Assembly (NCBI GenBank): GCA_951406725.2
Contig: OX597814.1
Coordinates: 150,040,001 to 150,104,000 of the forward strand
Length of the DNA stretch: 64,000 nucleotides
Direction: 5' to 3'
Source: Octopus vulgaris
Taxonomy: Eukaryota
Shown: one piece after another, positions 6,736-48,320 of the stretch
Layout: the number at the start of each line of letters is the position of its first letter
How positions within the stretch are numbered: position 1 is the first letter of the stretch
Notes under the pieces: generated by a model
What the model saw: the letters and a program-made list of their open reading frames with translations, nothing else
Database searches by the model: none
What the model was told of the DNA's origin: nothing
Translations under genes and position numbers: made by a program

Positions 6736-6777
<42 letters not shown>

Positions 6778-7196
6778 TGAGAAAGTTGGTGTGTGAAAGC
6801 ACGTGGTTGAATATATAGAAAATAGTAAAAAGTGAAAAAATACAGAAGGCTTGTTTTAAAAGGTTAAAGAAATATATATTTGAGTCATTATGTCAGAAGA
6901 ATGTTATAATTTTTTCATACAGTGACATAGTTTTTGAAAGAAATTACCGAAATCTTTTCAAATTTCTCAAAACATTGTTATGATTTCGTTTAAGAAATTT
7001 ACACTTCTTAAACGAAATCATAACAATGTTTTGAGAAATTTGAAAAGTTAAACACGAAACCGGTAATTGGGAGGGGCTTCAAAACTATGTCACTGTATGA
7101 AAAAAATTATAACATTCTTTAGGACATAATGACTCAATATATATTTTTAACCTCTTAAAACAAGCCTTCTGTAGTTTTTTCACTTTTTACTACTAT

Positions 7197-7281
<85 letters not shown>

Positions 7282-8106
7282 ATTAAAACAACATTTTAAA
7301 CAAAAAAGGAAATAATACACCGTCACTAAAAGTAACCAAGTGTGCAGGGAGCACTGGCATTGCCAGAAATAAGAGTGAAAGACTCTTTAGTCACAAACAA
7401 AATATATGTTCTATGTACTGACAAGGGAGGGAACCTCTCCACTGCAAGCGAGGGCATTAGATTGGCATGCTAATTTCGCATGAAATTAATGCTTACTCCA
7501 ATGGTGGTAAAGTTGAAATTACATTTGTCAGTCTCTATAGAATTTTCCATAGGAATCAATGGCTGAGTCAGCAAAATGGTAATGTGAAAATTATAAAATA
7601 ATTAAGGTGCTAGACGCTATATAAAACGAAAAAGGAAATAATTCACTATCACTAAAAGTAACCAAGGATGCAGGGAGCACCAGTATTGCTAGAAATAAGA
7701 GTCAAAGACCCTTTAGCCACAAACAAAGCACATGTTCTATGTACAGTGATATCTCATGCCTACTTCGCGGTTCAACTTCTCGCGGATTCAAATACACTGA
7801 AGTAAACCCTCTGGCATTAAATCATAGGATCGTGTGACCCACGTTGTGTGGCAATGCTGCGGGATTTTTGTTAAAGCCAGGACTTATTTTTCTTCACAAT
7901 GTCTAAAACCACGCCGGTTGCAACACCATATGGTTGTACCTCCAACAAAACAAGACTGCTGTGATTTTTGCTACTAAGGTATCGGTTAAACTTTTGATTA
8001 ATCTACTACAAGATTATTCATCTTTCTATTTCACATAATATATATATATATATATATATATATAGGTGAGAAAGTTGGTGTGTGAAAGCACGTGGTTGAA
8101 TATATA

Positions 8107-8488
8107 GAAAATAGTAAAAAGTGAAAAAACTACAGAAGGCTTGTTTTAAAAGGTTAAAAAATATATATTTGAGTCATTATGTCAGAAGAATGTTATAATT
8201 TTTTTTTCATACAGTGACATAGTTTTTGAAGAAATTACCGGTTTCGTGTTTAACTTTTCAAATTTCTCAAAACATTGTTATGATTTCGTTTAAGAAATTT
8301 ACACTTCTTAAACGAAATCATAACAATGTTTTGAGAAATTTGAAAAGTTAAACACGAAACCGGTAATTTCTTCAAAAACTATGTCACTGTATGAAAAAAA
8401 AAATTATAACATTCTTCTGACATAATGACTCAAATATATATTTTTTAACCTCTTAAAACAAGCCTTCTGTAGTTTTTTCACTTTTTAC

Positions 8489-8493
<5 letters not shown>
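8107..8493. repeat. Near-perfect palindrome, ~190-bp arms with 8-nt loop (8297-8304), between (TA)n tracts
   Basis: ...gatttcgtttaagaa-atttacac-ttcttaaacgaaatc...; arms are reverse-complementary. Confidence 0.92.
8333..8372 (+). ncRNA. Minimal type-I hammerhead-like motif, U3:A8 variant (mirror copy on minus strand at 8229-8268)
   Basis: gagaaat-TTGAAAA-gt(taaac)ac-GAAA-CCGG-TA-atttctt: 7-bp stem I, 2-bp stem II, palindromic ACCGGT stem III, GUA cleavage triplet. Confidence 0.55.
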
Positions 8494-8574
<81 letters not shown>

Positions 8575-20809: not shown

Positions 20810-21084
20810 GTCATCATCATCATTATCGTCATCATTATCATAAATAATGTCTGTTTTCCATGCAGGCATGTATTGGATGGCTTGACAGGAGCCAGCAAAA
20901 ACAGGGGATGCTTGAGATTCCATAGTTTGTTGCTTTTGTTACTGCTGCAGCTGTTGTTGTAATTGAGGAGAGATGGTTTCAAGAACCAAGAATTCTGCAA
21001 ACTTAACATGCCACTAAAGAGGAGATAGAAATAATACATTTCTAAATCTCTCAAAGAGATTTATGCAGTAGCAGCACAATAAAG

Positions 21085-23539
21085 TGATAGTATGTTGTCA
21101 ACTTAATGTGACAGTCCCATGAAAAGGAAGAATGCTACTGTTATTTAGCCCTAGAAAACACCATTTCCTGTTGGGCTTGACACATTTCCTGTGTCCTTGC
21201 TGTGTCAAGCAGGAAACAATGTTTCCTAGGGCTAAATAACAGTAGCATTCTTCCCTTTCATGGGACTGTCACATTAAGTTGAGAACATACTATCATTTTA
21301 AAGAAAAGATAGTCTGATTGTTTGAAGACATGATGACAGCTGTGGACATGAGTTTCTGTCTCAATAGGTATCATCAGTATATTGCTCTACATCAGTGTTT
21401 CTCAACCTTTTACCCTTGTGTAACCCTTAAAATAAATTACATGTCTCAAGGAATCCCTGCACAAAAAAATTATATACCATATCTTTCTCATATCTTTTTC
21501 ATTATAGTTCACATGGTAAATGTCATATATATATATATATATGTATATATGGTTGTTATATTTTTTGATAACATAATAGGTTAGATAGGATGATGTCTAT
21601 ATTACGATATTACAATAACCAATATGTTGCACATGTATTACTATACATGTGCAACATATTGGTTATTGTAATATCGTAATATAGACATCATCCTATCTAA
21701 CCTATTATGTTATCAAAAAATATAACAACCATATATACATATATATATATATATATATATGACATTTACCATGTGAACTATAATGAAAAAGATATGAGAA
21801 AGATATGGTATATAATTTTTTTGTGCAGGGATTCCTTGAGACATGTAATTTATTTTAAGGGTTACACAAGGGTAAAAGGTTGAGAAACACTGATGTAGAG
21901 CAATATGCTGATGATACCTATTGAGACAGAAACTCATGTCCACAGCTGTCATCATGTCTTCAAACAATCAGACTATCTTTTCTTTAAAATGACAGTATGT
22001 TGTCAACTTAATGTGACAGTCCCATGAAAGGGAAGAATGCTACTGTTATTTAGCCCTAGAAAACACCATTTCCTGTTGGGCTTGACACATTTCCTGTGTC
22101 CTTGCTGTGTCAAGCAGGAAACAATGTTTCCTAGGGCTAAATAACAGTAGCATTCTTCCCTTTCATGGGACTGTCACATTAAGTTGAGAACATACTATCA
22201 TTTTAAAGAAAAGATAGTCTGATTGTTTGAAGACATGATGACAGCTGTGGACATGAGTTTCTGTCTCAATAGGTATCATCAGTATATTGCTCTACATCAG
22301 TGTTTCTCAACCTTTTACCCTTGTGTAACCCTTAAAATAAATTACATGTCTCAAGGAATCCCTGCACAAAAAAATTATATACCATATCTTTCTCATATCT
22401 TTTTCATTATAGTTCACATGGTAAATGTCATATATATATATATGTATATATGGTTGTTATATTTTTTGATAACATAATAGGTTAGATAGGATGATGTCTA
22501 TATTACGATATTACAATAACCAATATGTTGCACATGTATAGTAATACATGTGCAACATATTGGTTATTGTAATATCGTAATATAGACATCATCCCATCTA
22601 ACCTATTATGTTATCAAAAAATATAACAACCATATATACATATATATATATATATATATATGACATTTACCATGTGAACTATAATGAAAAAGATATGAGA
22701 AAGATATGGTATATAATTTTTTTGTGCAGGATTCCTTGAGACATGTAATTTATTTTAAGGGTTACACAAGGGTAAAAGGTTGAGAAACACTGATGTAGAG
22801 CAATATACTGATGATACCTATTGAGACAGAAACTCATGTCCACAGCTGTCATCATGTCTTCAAACAATCAGACTATCTTTTCTTTAAAATGACAGTATGT
22901 TGTCAACTTAATGTGACAGTCCCATGAAAGGGAAGAATGCTACTGTTATTTAGCCCTAGAAAACACCATTTCCTGTTGGGCTTGACACATTTCCTGTGTC
23001 CTTGCTGTGTCAAGCAGGAAACAATGTTTCCTAGGGCTAAATAACAGTAGCATTCTTCCCTTTCATGGGACTGTCACATTAAGTTGAGAACATACTATCA
23101 TTTTAAAGAAAAGATAGTCTGATTGTTTGAAGACATGATGACAGCTGTGGACATGAGTTTCTGTCTCAATAGGTATCATCAGTATATTGCTCTACATCAG
23201 TGTTTCTCAACCTTTTACCCTTGTGTAACCCTTAAAATAAATTACATGTCTCAAGGAATCCCTGCACAAAAAAATTATATACCATATCTTTCTCATATCT
23301 TTTTCATTATAGTTCACATGGTAAATGTCATATATATATATATATATATATGTATATATGGTTGTTATATTTTTTGATAACATAATAGGTTAGATAGGAT
23401 GATGTCTATATTACGATATTACAATAACCAATATGTTGCACATGTATAGTAATACATGTGCAACATATTGGTTATTGTAATATCGTAATATAGACATCAT
23501 CCCATCTAACCTATTATGTTATCAAAAAATATAACAACC

Positions 23540-23571
<32 letters not shown>

Positions 23572-24449
23572 GACATTTACCATGTGAACTATAATGAAAA
23601 AGATATGAGAAAGATATGGTATATAATTTTTTTGTGCAGGGATTCCTTGAGACATATAATTTATTTTAAGGGTTACACAAGGGTAAAAGGTTGAGAAACA
23701 CTGATGTAGAGCAATATACTGATGATACCTATTGAGACAGAAACTCATGTCCACAGCTGTCATCATGTCTTCAAACAATCAGACTATCTTTCTTTAAAAT
23801 GACAGTATGTTCTCAACTTAATGTGACAGTCCCATGAAAGGGAAGAATGCTACTGTTATTTAGCCCTAGAAAACACCATTTCCTGTTGGGCTTGACACAT
23901 TTCCTGTGTCCTTGCTGTGTCAAGCAGGAAACAATGTTTCCTAGGGCTAAATAACAGTAGCATTCTTCCCTTTCATGGGACTGTCACATTAAGTTGAGAA
24001 CATACTATCATTTTAAAGAAAAGATAGTCTGATTGTTTGAAGACATGATGACAGCTGTGGACATGAGTTTCTGTCTCAATAGGTATCATCAGTATATTGC
24101 TCTACATCAGTGTTTCTCAACCTTTTACCCTTGTGTAACCCTTAAAATAAATTACATGTCTCAAGGAATCCCTGCACAAAAAAATTATATACCATATCTT
24201 TCTCATATCTTTTTCATTATAGTTCACATGGTAAATGTCATATATATATATATATATATATGTATATATGGTTGTTATATTTTTTGATAACATAATAGGT
24301 TAGATAGGATGATGTCTATATTACGATATTACAATAACCAATATGTTGCACATGTATTACTATACATGTGCAACATATTGGTTATTGTAATATCGTAATA
24401 TAGACATCATCCTATCTAACCTATTATGTTATCAAAAAATATAACAACC

Positions 24450-24481
<32 letters not shown>

Positions 24482-24842
24482 GACATTTACCATGTGAACT
24501 ATAATGAAAAAGATATGAGAAAGATATGGTATATAATTTTTTTGTGCAGGGATTCCTTGAGACATGTAATTTATTTTAAGGGTTACACAAGGGTAAAAGG
24601 TTGAAAAACACTGATGTAGAGCAATATACTGATGATACCTATTGAGACAGAAACTCATGTCCACAGCTGTCATCATGTCTTCAAACAATCAGACTATCTT
24701 TTCTTTAAAATGATAGTATGTTCTCAACTTAATGTGACAGTCCCATGAAAGGGAAGAATGCTACTGTTATTTAGCCCTAGGAAACATTGTTTCCTGCTTG
24801 ACACAGCAAGGACACAGGAAATGTGTCAAGCCCAACAGGAAA
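21085..24842. repeat. Array of alternating inverted copies (period ~905 bp, ~4 periods)
   Basis: The same MFEDMMTAVD ORF alternates +,-,+,-,+,-,+,- eight times. Hairpin turns lie at ~21640, 22540, 23450 and 24360. Confidence 0.97.
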
Positions 24843-24940
24843 TATTACGATCATGAAATTAGCATTAGCTTTCTTGGGGAACCTTTTGGAAACTTTTGTG
24901 AAATCCTAGGGTTCCTGGGAACCCTGGTTGAGAAACACTG
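21393..24940. mobile_element. hAT-type MITE whose left part was amplified in the inverted array
   Basis: TIRs cagtgtttctcaacc (21393) / ggttgagaaacactg (24940); 8-bp TSD ctctacat (21385-21392, 24941-24948). Confidence 0.85.
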
Positions 24941-27900
24941 CTCTACATAATCTTCAGCTGATGAAGCTCTTCAACATATACAAAAAAGATTAGATGACAT
25001 TTATGGCCAAAGTAATTTCCATAAGAGCTAAGACATGAGAAATGAGCTAAGACAAGTAACTTAAAATAACAATCGGCATATAGTTGAACTACAAAACAAA
25101 TATAGGTATATTAAATAATATTCAAGATAAATTCTTGTTTCATTGAAATTATCTCTGATTCACTTGGTAGCAATTGTTACCAATTCCAAATATGAAGGGG
25201 AGGTAATCTCAAGAATCAAGGTTTCTCCAAAATTGACATGCCATTTAGGAAAAGACACTTTGTCTGAAAACAACAGCACAGTTGTAGGCATGTGTTTCTA
25301 CCTCAAGAGCATCATTAGCATGGCAATGGTTTGAATACATACCTATTTCTTTACTACCCACAAGGGGCTATACACAGAGAGGAAAAACAAAGACAGACAA
25401 ACTGATTAAGTCGATTACATCGACCCCAGTGCATAACTGGTACTTAATTTATCAACCCCGAAAGGATGAAAGGCAAAGTCGACGGAACTTGAACTCAGAA
25501 CATAGTGGCAGATGAAATACCATGAAGCATTTCGCCCGGTGTGCTAACGATTCTGCCAGCTCGCCGCCTTTGAATACATACCACTGGTTTGAATACATAC
25601 CACTGACAACTCTTTTAGTTCATTTTCTTTTCATTTATGCAAATTATTTATTCTATATGTTCTGTTTTTCTTTTGTTTATGTTGAAGTATGTTATCTGCT
25701 TTGAGGACACATGGTCTGGTGGCTAGAGTGTTGCACTTAGGATCACACGATCATTCTGAGACCAGTTTTGATTCTCAGACCAAGTGGAGCAGTGTATTCT
25801 TGAGCAAAACACTTCATTTCATGTTACTCCAGGCTACTCAGCTGTAAATGAGTAACCCTAAAAAGGATGCCATGAAAACCAGGTAACCAGCCATGTGAAT
25901 CCACGTGAAGCCATATGACAATTTTTACTTTTTTTCTTCACTCATCTGCTGAAGATAAAGTAGGACAATTGTATGTTTTCTTCTTGATATGTGTAATGTC
26001 CATATTATTATGCTGTTTAAGTAAACTACATTCCAAAAGGACATCTCTGATTCTATAAACTACAGATCTATCACTCTCACTATATCTCAAGGCCAACAAG
26101 GGAGTATCTCTATAGTAACTGAACATGTTAAAATAGCAGTCAAATCTCCCGTTTCTACATTTTACCAAGTATTATGCCAGCACTCTCAAAATATCTCAAA
26201 GCCAATAAAGGAAAATTTACATTGCCACTTCACATAGATATTTTTTAATTGGCCATGAGACATGTTGGCCAAAATCTTCTTTAAATCAGATGCAGTTATT
26301 TAAAAATACAAAGAGTTCTGCATTTGAAAATTAGATAGAAACTGCTTGATCAGACATATGATTAAAAGTATTCCATCCATGGCCATCTTGCTTTTTTTTC
26401 AGGCCTAGTGTACTCTAACTACATTGCCAACAAAGTGTCTTTTTCTTTTTAAAAATGGTATGGTTTAGTATGGTGAAAATTTAGCTGCTATTCTTAGCAC
26501 AAGAAGCTACTATGCAGAGGCTCACTCATTACCTTGGTTTGATCAGATAGAGTCAGGTAGACTCTGTACTTAAACAGTTTTTCCAGAAACTTCTAATTTA
26601 AGAGTTTAGAGCCCAGTGATACAGACAGAATTTGTGCAGCTCAAGAAAGACCTTGAGTACCTCATCACCATGCAAAATACAATAATATATTTATAGAGTT
26701 CAGCACCCCACTAACGACAAACAATCCACTGCAGGTAGATTGTCCTCTCCCTTTTTCATTTCATTTTAGCTACACAATTCTTAGAGCCTATTGTGTTAAA
26801 ATTTTATAAATAGATTCTCATGTCAGACATGGTTGGACACTTTATTGATGTCAAAAGTAATTACATTGTTTTTACTGTATCTGTAATGTATTAGATCAGA
26901 TCACTGGTAAATCTGCCTCTATAGCAACCATAACGGTAATCAATGAAGAGATAACAAAAAATGCAAGTTCATAAAGTAATCAATTACAACTCCCCATCAA
27001 TCACATAGCTAGATCTGCGGTAGCTCTTGGTATCATTTGGTAGTCCTTGAGTTGGCTGTCTCTACCCACGAAAAGCAACACTATACATATATAATGTGCT
27101 ATCTTCCAAAAATACCACTTGGGACAAACTGTTCCCTTTCCTCAATTCATCTATGCTAGTGGTTTCAATAGCCTCTGAGCTATTTGTTGTTGAGCATATG
27201 GCCAACCTTCATTGAGCTGTACTGTCATCAAACATATTCCTGTCAAGATAACCTCATCTTTTGTTTTCCAGGTATAATGGCATATTTCATTATGAAAAGT
27301 GTTCTTCCATTTTTAAGGCAGTAGATTATAATTTGAGGGAGATTTCCCAACTATTTCCAGCAAGTCGAACAACATATTGTGACACCTTTGTTGATTCAAC
27401 CTTTCAGATATTAAACATGAAGAAATGATATATCAGTTGTTAAGTGACTCACAATCATTATTATAAAATAAACCCTTATCATAAATACAAGAAATTAGTG
27501 TTATTATTAGACTCTGGCATGCAGATATATTCCTTGCTTATTTTTATCACAGGCGGATAATAACCCCTTGAAGGTGATGAGGTGCATTATTGTGTATATC
27601 CTTATGATGGCAATAGAGCAAATAGCAGCCACATTTCCCTCAAACTGTTCCCATGAAAGTATGGAAAAAATTACTTTTTTTCTTAGACTGATCTGGAGAA
27701 AATGCTTTGTGTGTATCATTCATAAACACTAAAATGTTGAAAGTAAAATAGCAATATAGAGTAACTGAAAGCAATTAGCCACTCCAATGAAGGAACTTCA
27801 ACCTTGTTGCTCAACCTGCGAGAAATAATAGCTAAATTTTCCTCAAATCATAACCAACCGCCATAAGAAAAGAAGGACACATTGGACATTAGAGGCTAAG

Positions 27901-47309: not shown

Positions 47310-48320
47310 ATACCGTTCTCAACTCTGGGTTGTAAGACCATCATGTCTCAGGTCTTGGTTTTGAATTGTCATCAATGCTTTGGTAACTTTGCTTTTTTCC
47401 AGGTAAGGGTGTTGGCAAACCCATTTTTACCTCTAGGAATAGGTGGTCTATCATTGTATGTATGGCCTCTATCCTTTCATGTTCAGCATGGAAGGCCCCT
47501 ACCAGGATCTTTAACTCTACTGGCATAGCTCTCAGTGTCAATAAGGTACCTAAACCACCACACTTGTGGTGGCCATTGCCCTAGAGAAGTATTTTATTTT
47601 ACTGACCCTGAAAGAATAAAAGGCAAATTTGACTTTGGTAGTATTTGAACTCAGAATGCAGAGAGATGAAACAAATACTGAAAGATATTTTCCATGCTCT
47701 AATGATTCTGCCAGTTCACTAAAGTATATCACACTGTTGCTACAGTATGATGTCACTAGAAATGGTAACAATGTTGTTAAGGGTCATAACACTATTGCTG
47801 TTGTTTGACCCCATATCAGCTTTAATTGAACAAAACATTCCAGCCATGGTTGTCTACCCTGTATATCAGCCATGCATACTGAAGCAACAGTGTGATGTTC
47901 TTTAGTGAACTGGAAGAATCATTAGAGCATGGGGAAAATATCTTGCAGTATTTGTTTCATCTCTCTGCATTCTGGGTTCAAATGCTACCAAAGTCAAATT
48001 TGCCTTTTATTCTTTCAGAGTCAATAAAAAAAAATACTACTCTAGGGCAATGGCCATCACAAGTGTGGTGATTTAAGTACCTTAATGACCCTGAGGGCTA
48101 TGCCAGTAGAGTTAAAGATCCTGGTAGGTGCCTTCCATGCTGAACAAATGAAAGGATAGAGGCCATACAATGATAGACCACCTATTCCCAGAGGTAAAAA
48201 TGGGTTTGCATAGGGCCAACACTCCTACTTGGAAAGAAGCAAAGTTACCAAATCATTGATGACAATTCAAAACCAAGACCTAAGAGATGATGGCCTTACA
48301 GCCCAGAGTCGAGAACAGTG
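47310..48320. repeat. Long inverted repeat, ~390-bp arms (47310-47702 / 47922-48320)
   Basis: For example tcagaatgcagagagatgaaacaaatactg vs cagtatttgtttcatctctctgcattctg, and gttctcaactctggg vs cccagagtcgagaac. Confidence 0.85.

What the first reader, a model, noticed from the sequence alone, without database searches (positions are those of the whole stretch)
21085..24842. Alternating inverted amplification array with flip/flop hairpin loops
Seen: a ~345-bp segment runs +,-,+,-,+,-,+,- between two hairpin ends: a ~210-bp imperfect foldback (21085-21296) and a tight hairpin gttgcacatgta...tacatgtgcaac. The tight loop occurs in both orientations: tattactata (~21640, ~24360) and its reverse complement tatagtaata (~22540, ~23450). 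The large foldback keeps one orientation four times and is inverted and truncated at 24710-24842. The two 'flop' periods share a substitution (catcccatct vs catcctatct). The amplified unit straddles the left TIR of a hAT MITE, and sequence resumes inside that MITE (TSD ctctacat intact). Known: flip/flop loops characterise rolling-hairpin replication and dog-bone intermediates (ODIRA-type inverted amplification); hAT transposases generate hairpins on flanking DNA. Inference: a chromosomal footprint of hairpin-capped linear DNA replication or repeated template switching. A polymerase simply circling one dumbbell would give a single loop orientation, which argues against a trivial read artefact.
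Basis: partly seen in the sequence, partly recalled or inferred. Interest (0 to 1): 0.75.

Follow-up and report, generated by a model that had tools for sequence, protein, structure and literature searches.

The report
Inverted duplication expanded into alternating array
In this animal genome assembly a 345-base stretch appears eight times in alternating direction; it is likely one replication slip that made a mirror-image copy, later multiplied by ordinary unequal recombination, a known kind of rearrangement, and it is not yet shown to exist outside the assembly.

Summary
The array is in the assembly as described: eight 337-347-bp arms, at least 98% identical, loops ordered flip, flop, flop, flip. 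Related copies show it is a 3,199-bp insertion at one point inside a 349-bp hAT-type MITE whose TIRs and 8-bp TSD are intact. The last period alone is an inverted duplication with 480-bp arms, as two template switches would make. That inversion turns the right arm of a neighbouring foldback repeat into a direct repeat of its left arm (3 mismatches in 71 bp), about 905 bp away. Unequal exchange there would give the other three periods and explains why the big loop keeps one orientation. Spacer inversion is known in ordinary chromosomal inverted repeats (PMC5453318), so flip/flop does not indicate rolling-hairpin replication; the array is not mirror-symmetric and no junction lies at a TIR. Reality is open: no contig from two other runs spans an array junction, one contig leaves the window at the right junction, and all 7 arm variants lie on minus arms, as nanopore fold-back errors could. 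Real about 70%, artefact about 28%. The scan had not noted this structure before.

The parts
21080..21300 (+). Foldback repeat F, original copy (dispersed palindromic family, arms about 100 bp)
   Evidence: two facing arms at 24 of 27 other loci of the family
21297..21637 (+). Arm 1 of segment S (about 90 bp spacer DNA, TSD, left 245 bp of the MITE); original position
21385..21392 (+). Left 8-bp target-site duplication CTCTACAT
21393..21407 (+). Left 15-bp TIR of the hAT-type MITE (repeated in every arm)
21638..21643 (.). Tight loop 1, inverted relative to native (junction J1', 2-bp TA microhomology)
21644..21988 (-). Arm 2 (one private substitution)
21985..22205 (+). F copy 2; junction J2 inferred in 21990-22001, new base C at 21993
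22202..22538 (+). Arm 3
22539..22544 (.). Tight loop 2, native orientation
22545..22888 (-). Arm 4 (shared substitution at 22595; 1-bp deletion)
22885..23105 (+). F copy 3, junction J2
23102..23446 (+). Arm 5
23447..23452 (.). Tight loop 3, native orientation
23453..23798 (-). Arm 6 (shared substitution at 23503; one private substitution; 1-bp deletion)
23795..24015 (+). F copy 4, junction J2, left arm matching the right arm at one more site
24012..24356 (+). Arm 7
24357..24362 (.). Tight loop 4, inverted; centre of a palindrome with 479/481-bp arms (1 substitution, 2 gap columns)
24363..24709 (-). Arm 8 (one private substitution in the TIR)
24706..24843 (-). Inverted, truncated F; its first 71 bp are a direct repeat of the left arm of F copy 1 (3 mismatches)
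24841..24844 (.). Return junction J3 into the MITE; 3-bp AAT microhomology inferred from paralog consensus
   Evidence: not confirmed by the X1 contig
24844..24940 (+). Right 97 bp of the MITE with right TIR (24926-24940)
24941..24948 (+). Right 8-bp target-site duplication

Best explanation
The assembly holds a four-period alternating array that likely arose in two stages: a replication template switch that made one inverted duplication, then expansion by unequal exchange, with one later inversion of the 6-base loop. Stage 1 (inferred): at a quasi-palindrome in the MITE centre the nascent strand switched to the opposite strand on 2 bp of homology, copied about 480 nt backwards into the foldback F, and returned on about 3 bp of homology within 7 bases of where it left. 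This predicts an inverted spacer, which the first and last loops show. Stage 2 (inferred): the inversion placed the reverse complement of F's right arm about 905 bp downstream of F's left arm as a direct repeat; slippage or unequal exchange between them duplicated the whole period, keeping F in + orientation, and longer repeats drove further rounds. Stage 3 (inferred): one inner period had its spacer re-inverted and gained a substitution, then was duplicated (periods 2 and 3). Shown: anatomy, native orientation, single insertion point, the direct repeat, the three junction types. Not shown: the order of events, the enzymes, and presence in unamplified DNA.
For: Removing the array leaves a 349-bp MITE collinear end to end with 6 of 10 paralog loci tested (75-84% identity; the other 4 align in part or in two pieces). 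9 paralog loci carry the centre motif and none continues as the hairpin. The last period is a palindrome with 479/481-bp arms; the tight-loop junction and the return junction map within 7 bases of each other in the native element. Direct repeat of 71 bp with 3 mismatches. Only three junction types, each base-identical among its copies. Adjacent periods 2 and 3 share loop orientation and a substitution. The same MITE site shows an independent short fold-back at L029 and palindrome-perfecting changes at L008, L011, L027. Aged analogues exist: 85%-identical palindrome of about 1 kb at window 47312-48319; six- and four-arm alternating structures in 2 of 80 random 10-kb stretches; a third F arm at 78-89% identity at 3 of 27 other F loci. 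Event types with inverted spacers, and inversion of a 6-bp spacer, are reported in human-chimp comparisons (PMC5453318, passages). Inverted repeats coming to lie in direct orientation after inversion and then recombining is reported in yeast (PMC4689423, passage). Weak hint: in run X2 the locus-specific F centre has word depth 144 against 65 for the adjoining single piece, as an extra F copy would give.
Against: No contig of X1 or X2 was laid across the tight loop or J2; J3 was not among the listed pieces. An arm piece has depth 55.6 in X2 and 18.4 in X1, about single-copy, so those runs probably lack the four-period allele (assignment to the locus is inferred, and the tool warns that depth is no copy number). 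All 7 non-microsatellite arm variants lie on minus arms (two-sided p 0.016, or 0.031 counting the shared one once; post hoc), which descent by unequal exchange does not predict. The X1 contig stops matching at 24844, not 24841, so the AAT microhomology rests on paralog consensus only. Left arms of F2 and F3 are mosaics at diagnostic sites unless the A at 21125 is a later change or another haplotype. A 480-nt switched fragment is far longer than the tens of bases in PMC5453318.
Confidence: 0.5

Rival explanations
1. The four-period array is a library, read or assembly artefact, possibly an inflation of a real one-period palindrome; loop orientation and arm variants come from consensus and polishing noise.
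For: No junction seen in contigs of X1 or X2 and arm depth about single-copy. Variants only on the second arm of each hairpin, all transitions or 1-bp homopolymer gaps; inverted duplicates lower nanopore accuracy after the junction (PMC7229812, passages). Zigzag triplications among orphan nanopore reads are likely artefacts (PMC5829575, passages); foldback reads are 0.55-0.6% of ONT genomic reads (PMC12870357, passages). Either loop is native sequence extended from one arm. X2 depths (F centre 144, arm piece 55.6, right piece 65) would fit a one-period allele with hairpin dropout (my arithmetic, weak).
Against: Shares of words of 0.59 and 0.55 suggest X1 and X2 are not the assembled animal, so absence there fits a private allele; holes in contigs prove nothing (tool text). 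Three base-exact junction types with re-entry at the departure point. The arm variants cannot be two native alleles scattered by polishing: at two sites 23 bp apart, 6 of 8 arms carry a third combination. F4 and F5 share a context but differ at the new C. The sequencing technology of this assembly is not known to me.
Confidence: 0.28
2. Real, but made in one event by iterative template switching: the polymerase shuttled eight times, each plus arm and F re-copied from the parental strand and each minus arm made by error-prone reverse synthesis, turning by fold-back (native loop) or inter-strand switch (inverted loop).
For: Plus arms are identical apart from TA length, private variants lie only on minus arms and are not passed on; F stays in + orientation. 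Iterative switching is a published model for inverted triplications (as summarised in PMC13334657, introduction).
Against: Needs four turns on the same 2-bp microhomology and three returns that each create the same new C.
Confidence: 0.1
3. Real, made through a hairpin-capped linear (dog-bone or rolling-hairpin) intermediate bounded by F and the tight loop, which reintegrated.
For: Unit bounded by two hairpin-forming ends, one a pre-existing interrupted inverted repeat; both loops occur in two orientations; the stretch from F3 to F5 is mirror-symmetric about F4 in loop orientation.
Against: Mirror test: 1 of 4 tight loops has flanking F copies in opposite orientation; 2 of 3 inner F copies have flanking loops in opposite orientation. 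ODIRA products have 2n+1 copies and include an origin (PMC4689423, passages); here there are 8 arms, a third junction and a 345-bp unit. A flipped dimeric circle would flip both loops together, yet loop 1 is inverted beside + foldbacks. Longest ORF inside the array is 90 aa.
Confidence: 0.09
4. hAT transposase cut at the MITE and left hairpin-capped ends that seeded the array.
For: The unit contains the left TIR and TSD of a hAT-type MITE; hAT enzymes make hairpins (PMC4763223, passages).
Against: Those hairpins form on flanking DNA at the TIR; no junction here is within 97 bp of a TIR edge, and both TIRs and TSDs are intact.
Confidence: 0.03

Closest known systems
Four-point template-switch events with inverted spacer, types 3-1-2-4 / 3-1-4-2 (Loytynoja and Goldman 2017, PMC5453318; 12 passages read)
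   Same: Two switches, a reverse-complement fragment, an inverted repeat with inverted spacer; later inversion of a 6-bp spacer is also described.
   Different: Switched fragment about 480 nt instead of tens of bases; followed by tandem expansion, which that model does not cover.
Small inverted triplications, SIT (PMC13334657; part 1 of 8 and 12 passages read)
   Same: Hundreds-of-bp scale, microhomology junctions, fold-back or switch at palindromic sites, near microsatellites.
   Different: SIT is DUP/IN/DUP (median 148/160/148 bp); here the founding event returns at the departure point (duplication, not triplication) and there are four periods.
ODIRA inverted amplicons (PMC4689423 and PMC10766183; 12 passages each)
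   Same: Alternating copies between two inverted-repeat junctions; secondary recombination between repeats brought into direct orientation.
   Different: ODIRA gives 2n+1 copies, two junction types, kb-scale units with an origin; here 8 arms, three junction types, 345-bp unit, origin untested.
Inverted tandem duplications in NA12878 and zigzag orphan reads (PMC5829575; 12 passages)
   Same: Supported inverted tandem duplications (6 cases) match the founding event; zigzag orphans match the artefact rival.
   Different: No multi-period case in the passages seen.
Salmonella tandem inversion duplication (Kugelberg et al. 2010; paper not held; recalled, and its model seen second-hand in bioRxiv 10.1101/2025.01.14.632981, 12 passages)
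   Same: Fold-back at one palindrome, return at a second, later amplification (amplification recalled, not read).
   Different: Bacterial, kb-scale, under selection; here non-coding and apparently unselected.

Membership tests
Template-switch inverted duplication (four-point model) | Insert is the reverse complement of adjacent sequence with two switch points | tested here: met
   last period 479/481-bp arms, 1 substitution; junctions
Template-switch inverted duplication (four-point model) | Inverted spacer when the switch lands beyond the departure point | tested here: met
   loops 1 and 4 inverted relative to 9 paralog loci
Template-switch inverted duplication (four-point model) | Short range (tens of bases) | tested here: not met
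   about 480 nt; so it works like, but is not, a short-range event
Template-switch inverted duplication (four-point model) | Ancestral allele observed directly | tested here: inconclusive
   inferred from paralogs; X1 contig leaves the window at 24844 but its letters were not shown
ODIRA amplicon | 2n+1 copies ending in a direct copy | tested here: not met
   8 arms, last one inverted
ODIRA amplicon | Both junctions at pre-existing short interrupted inverted repeats, no other junction | tested here: not met
   J2 at F arms fits; J1 has only 2 bp; a third junction J3 exists
ODIRA amplicon | Replication origin inside the unit | not testable with these tools
   no origin assay or map
Small inverted triplication (SIT) | DUP/IN/DUP architecture | tested here: not met
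   array ends in an inverted arm and rejoins at the departure point
Small inverted triplication (SIT) | Sub-kb size with short microhomology junctions | tested here: met
   345-480 bp, 2-3 bp; the 3-bp one is inferred
Rolling-hairpin concatemer | Mirror symmetry about each turning loop (recalled feature) | tested here: not met
   1 of 4 tight loops and 2 of 3 inner F copies pass
Rolling-hairpin concatemer | Flip and flop forms of the hairpin ends | tested here: met
   not diagnostic (PMC5453318)
Rolling-hairpin concatemer | Rep-type nickase and nick site | tested here: inconclusive
   ORFs inside the array at most 90 aa, not scanned for domains; an enzyme in trans was not searched for
hAT-type MITE (the interrupted element) | Short TIRs and 8-bp TSD | tested here: met
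   window TSD exact; TSD with at most 1 mismatch at 7 of 13 paralog loci where a TIR pair was found, of 21 scanned
hAT-type MITE (the interrupted element) | Short, non-coding, many dispersed copies | tested here: met
   349 bp; 1,184 first-look candidates, 40 scored
hAT-type MITE (the interrupted element) | Matching autonomous hAT transposase | not tested
   no search run
hAT transposase-induced rearrangement | Hairpin-derived junction on flanking DNA at the TIR edge | tested here: not met
   junctions 245 and 97 bp inside, about 300 bp outside; TIR and TSD intact

The most novel reading that the evidence does not exclude
A single germline event in which a polymerase shuttled eight times between two transposon-derived hairpins about 450 bp apart, turning in two different ways at the same base and making errors only on the reverse passes, or a tiny origin-less hairpin-capped intermediate that reintegrated; closely spaced foldback MITEs would then be standing substrates for one-step alternating amplification in animals.
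Probability: 0.15. Interest if true: 0.7.

Novelty: new variant of a known kind. Interest (0 to 1): 0.3.

Why it matters
If real, it is a compact, base-readable case of how a non-coding palindrome grows: one inversion next to a foldback repeat converts inverted arms into direct repeats, and the new period then expands. That is a plausible route from two MITEs to a head-to-head satellite in a genome rich in palindromes (44 hits at 31 of 80 random stretches). It also shows that flip/flop loops in an assembly are weak evidence for rolling-hairpin replication and weak evidence against an artefact. No gene or function is implicated.

Tried and rejected
Read test on 24300-25500: the stretch included a very high-copy repeat at 25325-25500 that swamped the joint and loose-end tables (105 joints and 330,182 pieces not shown), so J1 and J3 could not be judged. 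Read test on 22500-22930 at 98%: no cover over the loop, J2 or the unique spacer in X1 or X2; a hole is no evidence. Raw-read runs X21 and X22: 0 reads laid from about 3 in 100 of each run, no test. The X2 37-letter contig carrying the shared substitution departs from the window at its end and was taken as a paralog. Rfam: 73 matches, all below gathering score, nearly all miRNA hairpin models; no ribozyme, so the retrozyme or Penelope arrays noted elsewhere in this genome do not explain it. Search for a second locus with the same hairpin junction: none. Search of 27 other F loci for a young multi-period array: none. Heterozygous SNPs scattered by polishing as the source of arm variants: rejected. 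Literature searches for this exact architecture returned 0, 1 and 2 papers, none describing it by title or abstract start; subscription journals are largely missing, and no supplement was read.
Full report
1. What is there. The window is G000:C1:150040001-150104000 of a 2.8-Gb assembly in 227 contigs; earlier scan notes call it an octopus genome (not tested here). Between 21080 and 24843 a segment S occurs eight times, +,-,+,-,+,-,+,-, 337-347 bp each. Periods are 905, 900, 910 and 911 bp. The tight loops read TTACTA, TAGTAA, TAGTAA, TTACTA. The large foldback F is + four times and inverted and truncated at the end. The 18-base hairpin junction occurs 4 times in the whole assembly, all here.

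2. The parts. F belongs to a dispersed palindromic repeat family (2,049 first-look candidates, 40 scored; alignment). The interrupted element is a dispersed MITE with 15-bp TIRs. An 8-bp TSD with at most one mismatch was found at 7 of 13 paralog loci with a TIR pair, of 21 scanned, which fits a hAT-type element; no transposase was searched for. At 9 paralog loci the centre motif continues into the right part of the element and never into a hairpin. So TAGTAA is the native orientation, and the array is an insertion at one point. Removing it leaves 349 bp, collinear end to end with 6 of 10 paralog loci at 75-84% identity, the other 4 aligning in part or in two pieces; the insertion is 3,199 bp. 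No ORF inside the array exceeds 90 aa. No Rfam family reaches its gathering score.

3. Three junctions. J1, the tight loop, joins native sequence to its reverse complement on a TA dinucleotide. Its two orientations are one junction read from either strand. J3, at 24841-24844, returns from inverted F (base equivalent to 21163) into the MITE within 7 bases of J1's native position, on an inferred AAT microhomology. J2, three copies, passes from the inverted right arm of F into the left arm of a + copy, inside 21990-22001, with a new C beside it.

4. Mechanism. The last period alone is a palindrome with 479/481-bp arms (1 substitution, 2 gap columns). Two template switches would make it, and the order of switch points predicts an inverted spacer, as in loops 1 and 4 (types 3-1-2-4 or 3-1-4-2 of PMC5453318; 12 passages read). 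The native site is a quasi-palindrome. It has switched independently elsewhere: a short fold-back at L029 and palindrome-perfecting changes at L008, L011 and L027. The inversion places the reverse complement of F's right arm downstream of F's left arm as a direct repeat, 3 mismatches in 71 bp. Unequal exchange or slippage there duplicates the period with F in + orientation, which is what J2 looks like. The same principle, inverted repeats coming into direct orientation and then recombining, is reported for a yeast amplicon (PMC4689423, passage). One inner period then had its spacer re-inverted and gained a substitution before being duplicated, giving periods 2 and 3. Inversion of a 6-bp spacer is reported between human and chimp. 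The anatomy is shown; the order of events and the enzymes are inferred.

5. Successive fold-back copying should be mirror-symmetric about each turn (recalled). Only 1 of 4 tight loops has flanking F copies in opposite orientation, though 2 of 3 inner F copies have opposite loops beside them. ODIRA gives 2n+1 copies with an origin; here there are 8 arms and a third junction. hAT enzymes leave hairpins on flanking DNA at the TIR (PMC4763223, 12 passages); no junction here is at a TIR, and both TIRs and TSDs are intact. For rolling-hairpin flip/flop I saw only a search listing.

6. Is it real DNA? Open. Of 24 runs listed, 6 were laid. It stops at 24844, not 24841, so it does not confirm the AAT microhomology. 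No contig of X1 or X2 covers the loop or J2, but the tool states that holes prove nothing. An arm piece (22671-22713) has depth 55.6 in X2 and 18.4 in X1, against 65 and about 24 for single-copy pieces, so neither run seems to hold eight arms. In X2 the F centre, exact and found nowhere else in the assembly among 40 scored candidates, has depth 144; in X16 it has 41.3 against 48.3. That could be a shorter allele with an extra F copy, but depth is no copy number and I could not test it. Shares of 0.59 and 0.55 suggest neither run is the assembled animal. X21 and X22 gave no test.

7. Against the best reading. All 7 non-microsatellite arm variants lie on minus arms (p 0.016, or 0.031 counting the shared one once; post hoc). 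Nanopore accuracy falls after an inverted junction (PMC7229812, 10 passages), zigzag orphan reads are likely artefacts (PMC5829575, 12 passages), and foldback reads make up 0.55-0.6% of ONT genomic reads (PMC12870357, 12 passages). I do not know this assembly's technology. Since each loop is native sequence extended from one arm, polishing could set either orientation, so two orientations do not exclude an artefact. The same bias would follow from a one-step shuttle with error-prone reverse passes, which is the novel reading.

8. Background. In 80 evenly spaced 10-kb stretches (800 kb) there were 44 palindrome hits at 31 stretches. L114 has six alternating arms at 78-99% to a probe arm and L130 has four at 86-100%; L114 was flagged by the script, L130 by inspection. 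An 85%-identical palindrome of about 1 kb lies at window 47312-48319. Of 27 other F loci, 3 have a third arm copy at 78-89% and none has a young multi-period array. Diverged structures cannot be read artefacts, so local inversion at foldback repeats does occur in this genome, but a young eight-arm array is rare: 0 of 80 random stretches.

9. Comparison and verdict. It works like a template-switch inverted duplication followed by tandem amplification. It is not a member of ODIRA, SIT (PMC13334657, part 1 of 8 and 12 passages) or rolling-hairpin concatemers by the features tested. PMC10766183 and bioRxiv 10.1101/2025.01.14.632981 were read as 12 passages each; the Salmonella tandem inversion duplication paper was not held and is recalled. 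Three targeted searches found no description of this architecture; supplements were not read and could list such cases. Earlier scan notes held no such array. Verdict: new variant of a known kind, real about 70%, interest 0.3.

Noticed in passing
window 47312-48319: Aged inverted duplication of about 1 kb, 85% arm identity, 93 differing columns; similar arm length to the founding event here.
   Followed up: partly
window 8100-8502: Young palindrome, 404 bp, 97.5%, beside TA repeats; its arm also matches an older palindrome at 6736-7281.
   Followed up: partly
L029 (G000:C6:60760575-60760600): Independent short fold-back at the same MITE centre; the only such 26-mer in the assembly.
   Followed up: yes
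L114:2732-3656 (G000:C12:80002732-80003656): Six alternating arms of a dispersed palindromic family; inner arms 78-87%, outer pair 99% identical.
   Followed up: partly
L130:8302-8716 (G000:C19): Palindrome of palindromes: outer arms 99.5%, inner about 83%.
   Followed up: partly
L041:398-782 and L012:2147-3093: Near-perfect palindromes (385 bp, no arm difference; 947 bp, 96%) ending in TA repeats.
   Followed up: no
L051:2097-3450 (G000:C1:20002097 onward): Direct and inverted copies of a 359-bp unit at 97-100% in TA repeats; resembles the 360-bp ribozyme arrays in earlier scan notes, not checked.
   Followed up: no
L082:3109-3968 (G000:C5): Aged palindrome, 860 bp, 86%, with a small duplication at its centre.
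   Followed up: no
L138, L140, L145: F-family loci with a third arm copy 330-470 bp away at 78-89% identity.
   Followed up: partly
run X2 on window 24759-24837: Locus-specific F centre at word depth 144 against 65 next to it; unexplained.
   Followed up: partly
run X16 on window 24912-25363: Labelled organism A, but shares most listed differences with organism B run X4; the label may be loose.
   Followed up: no
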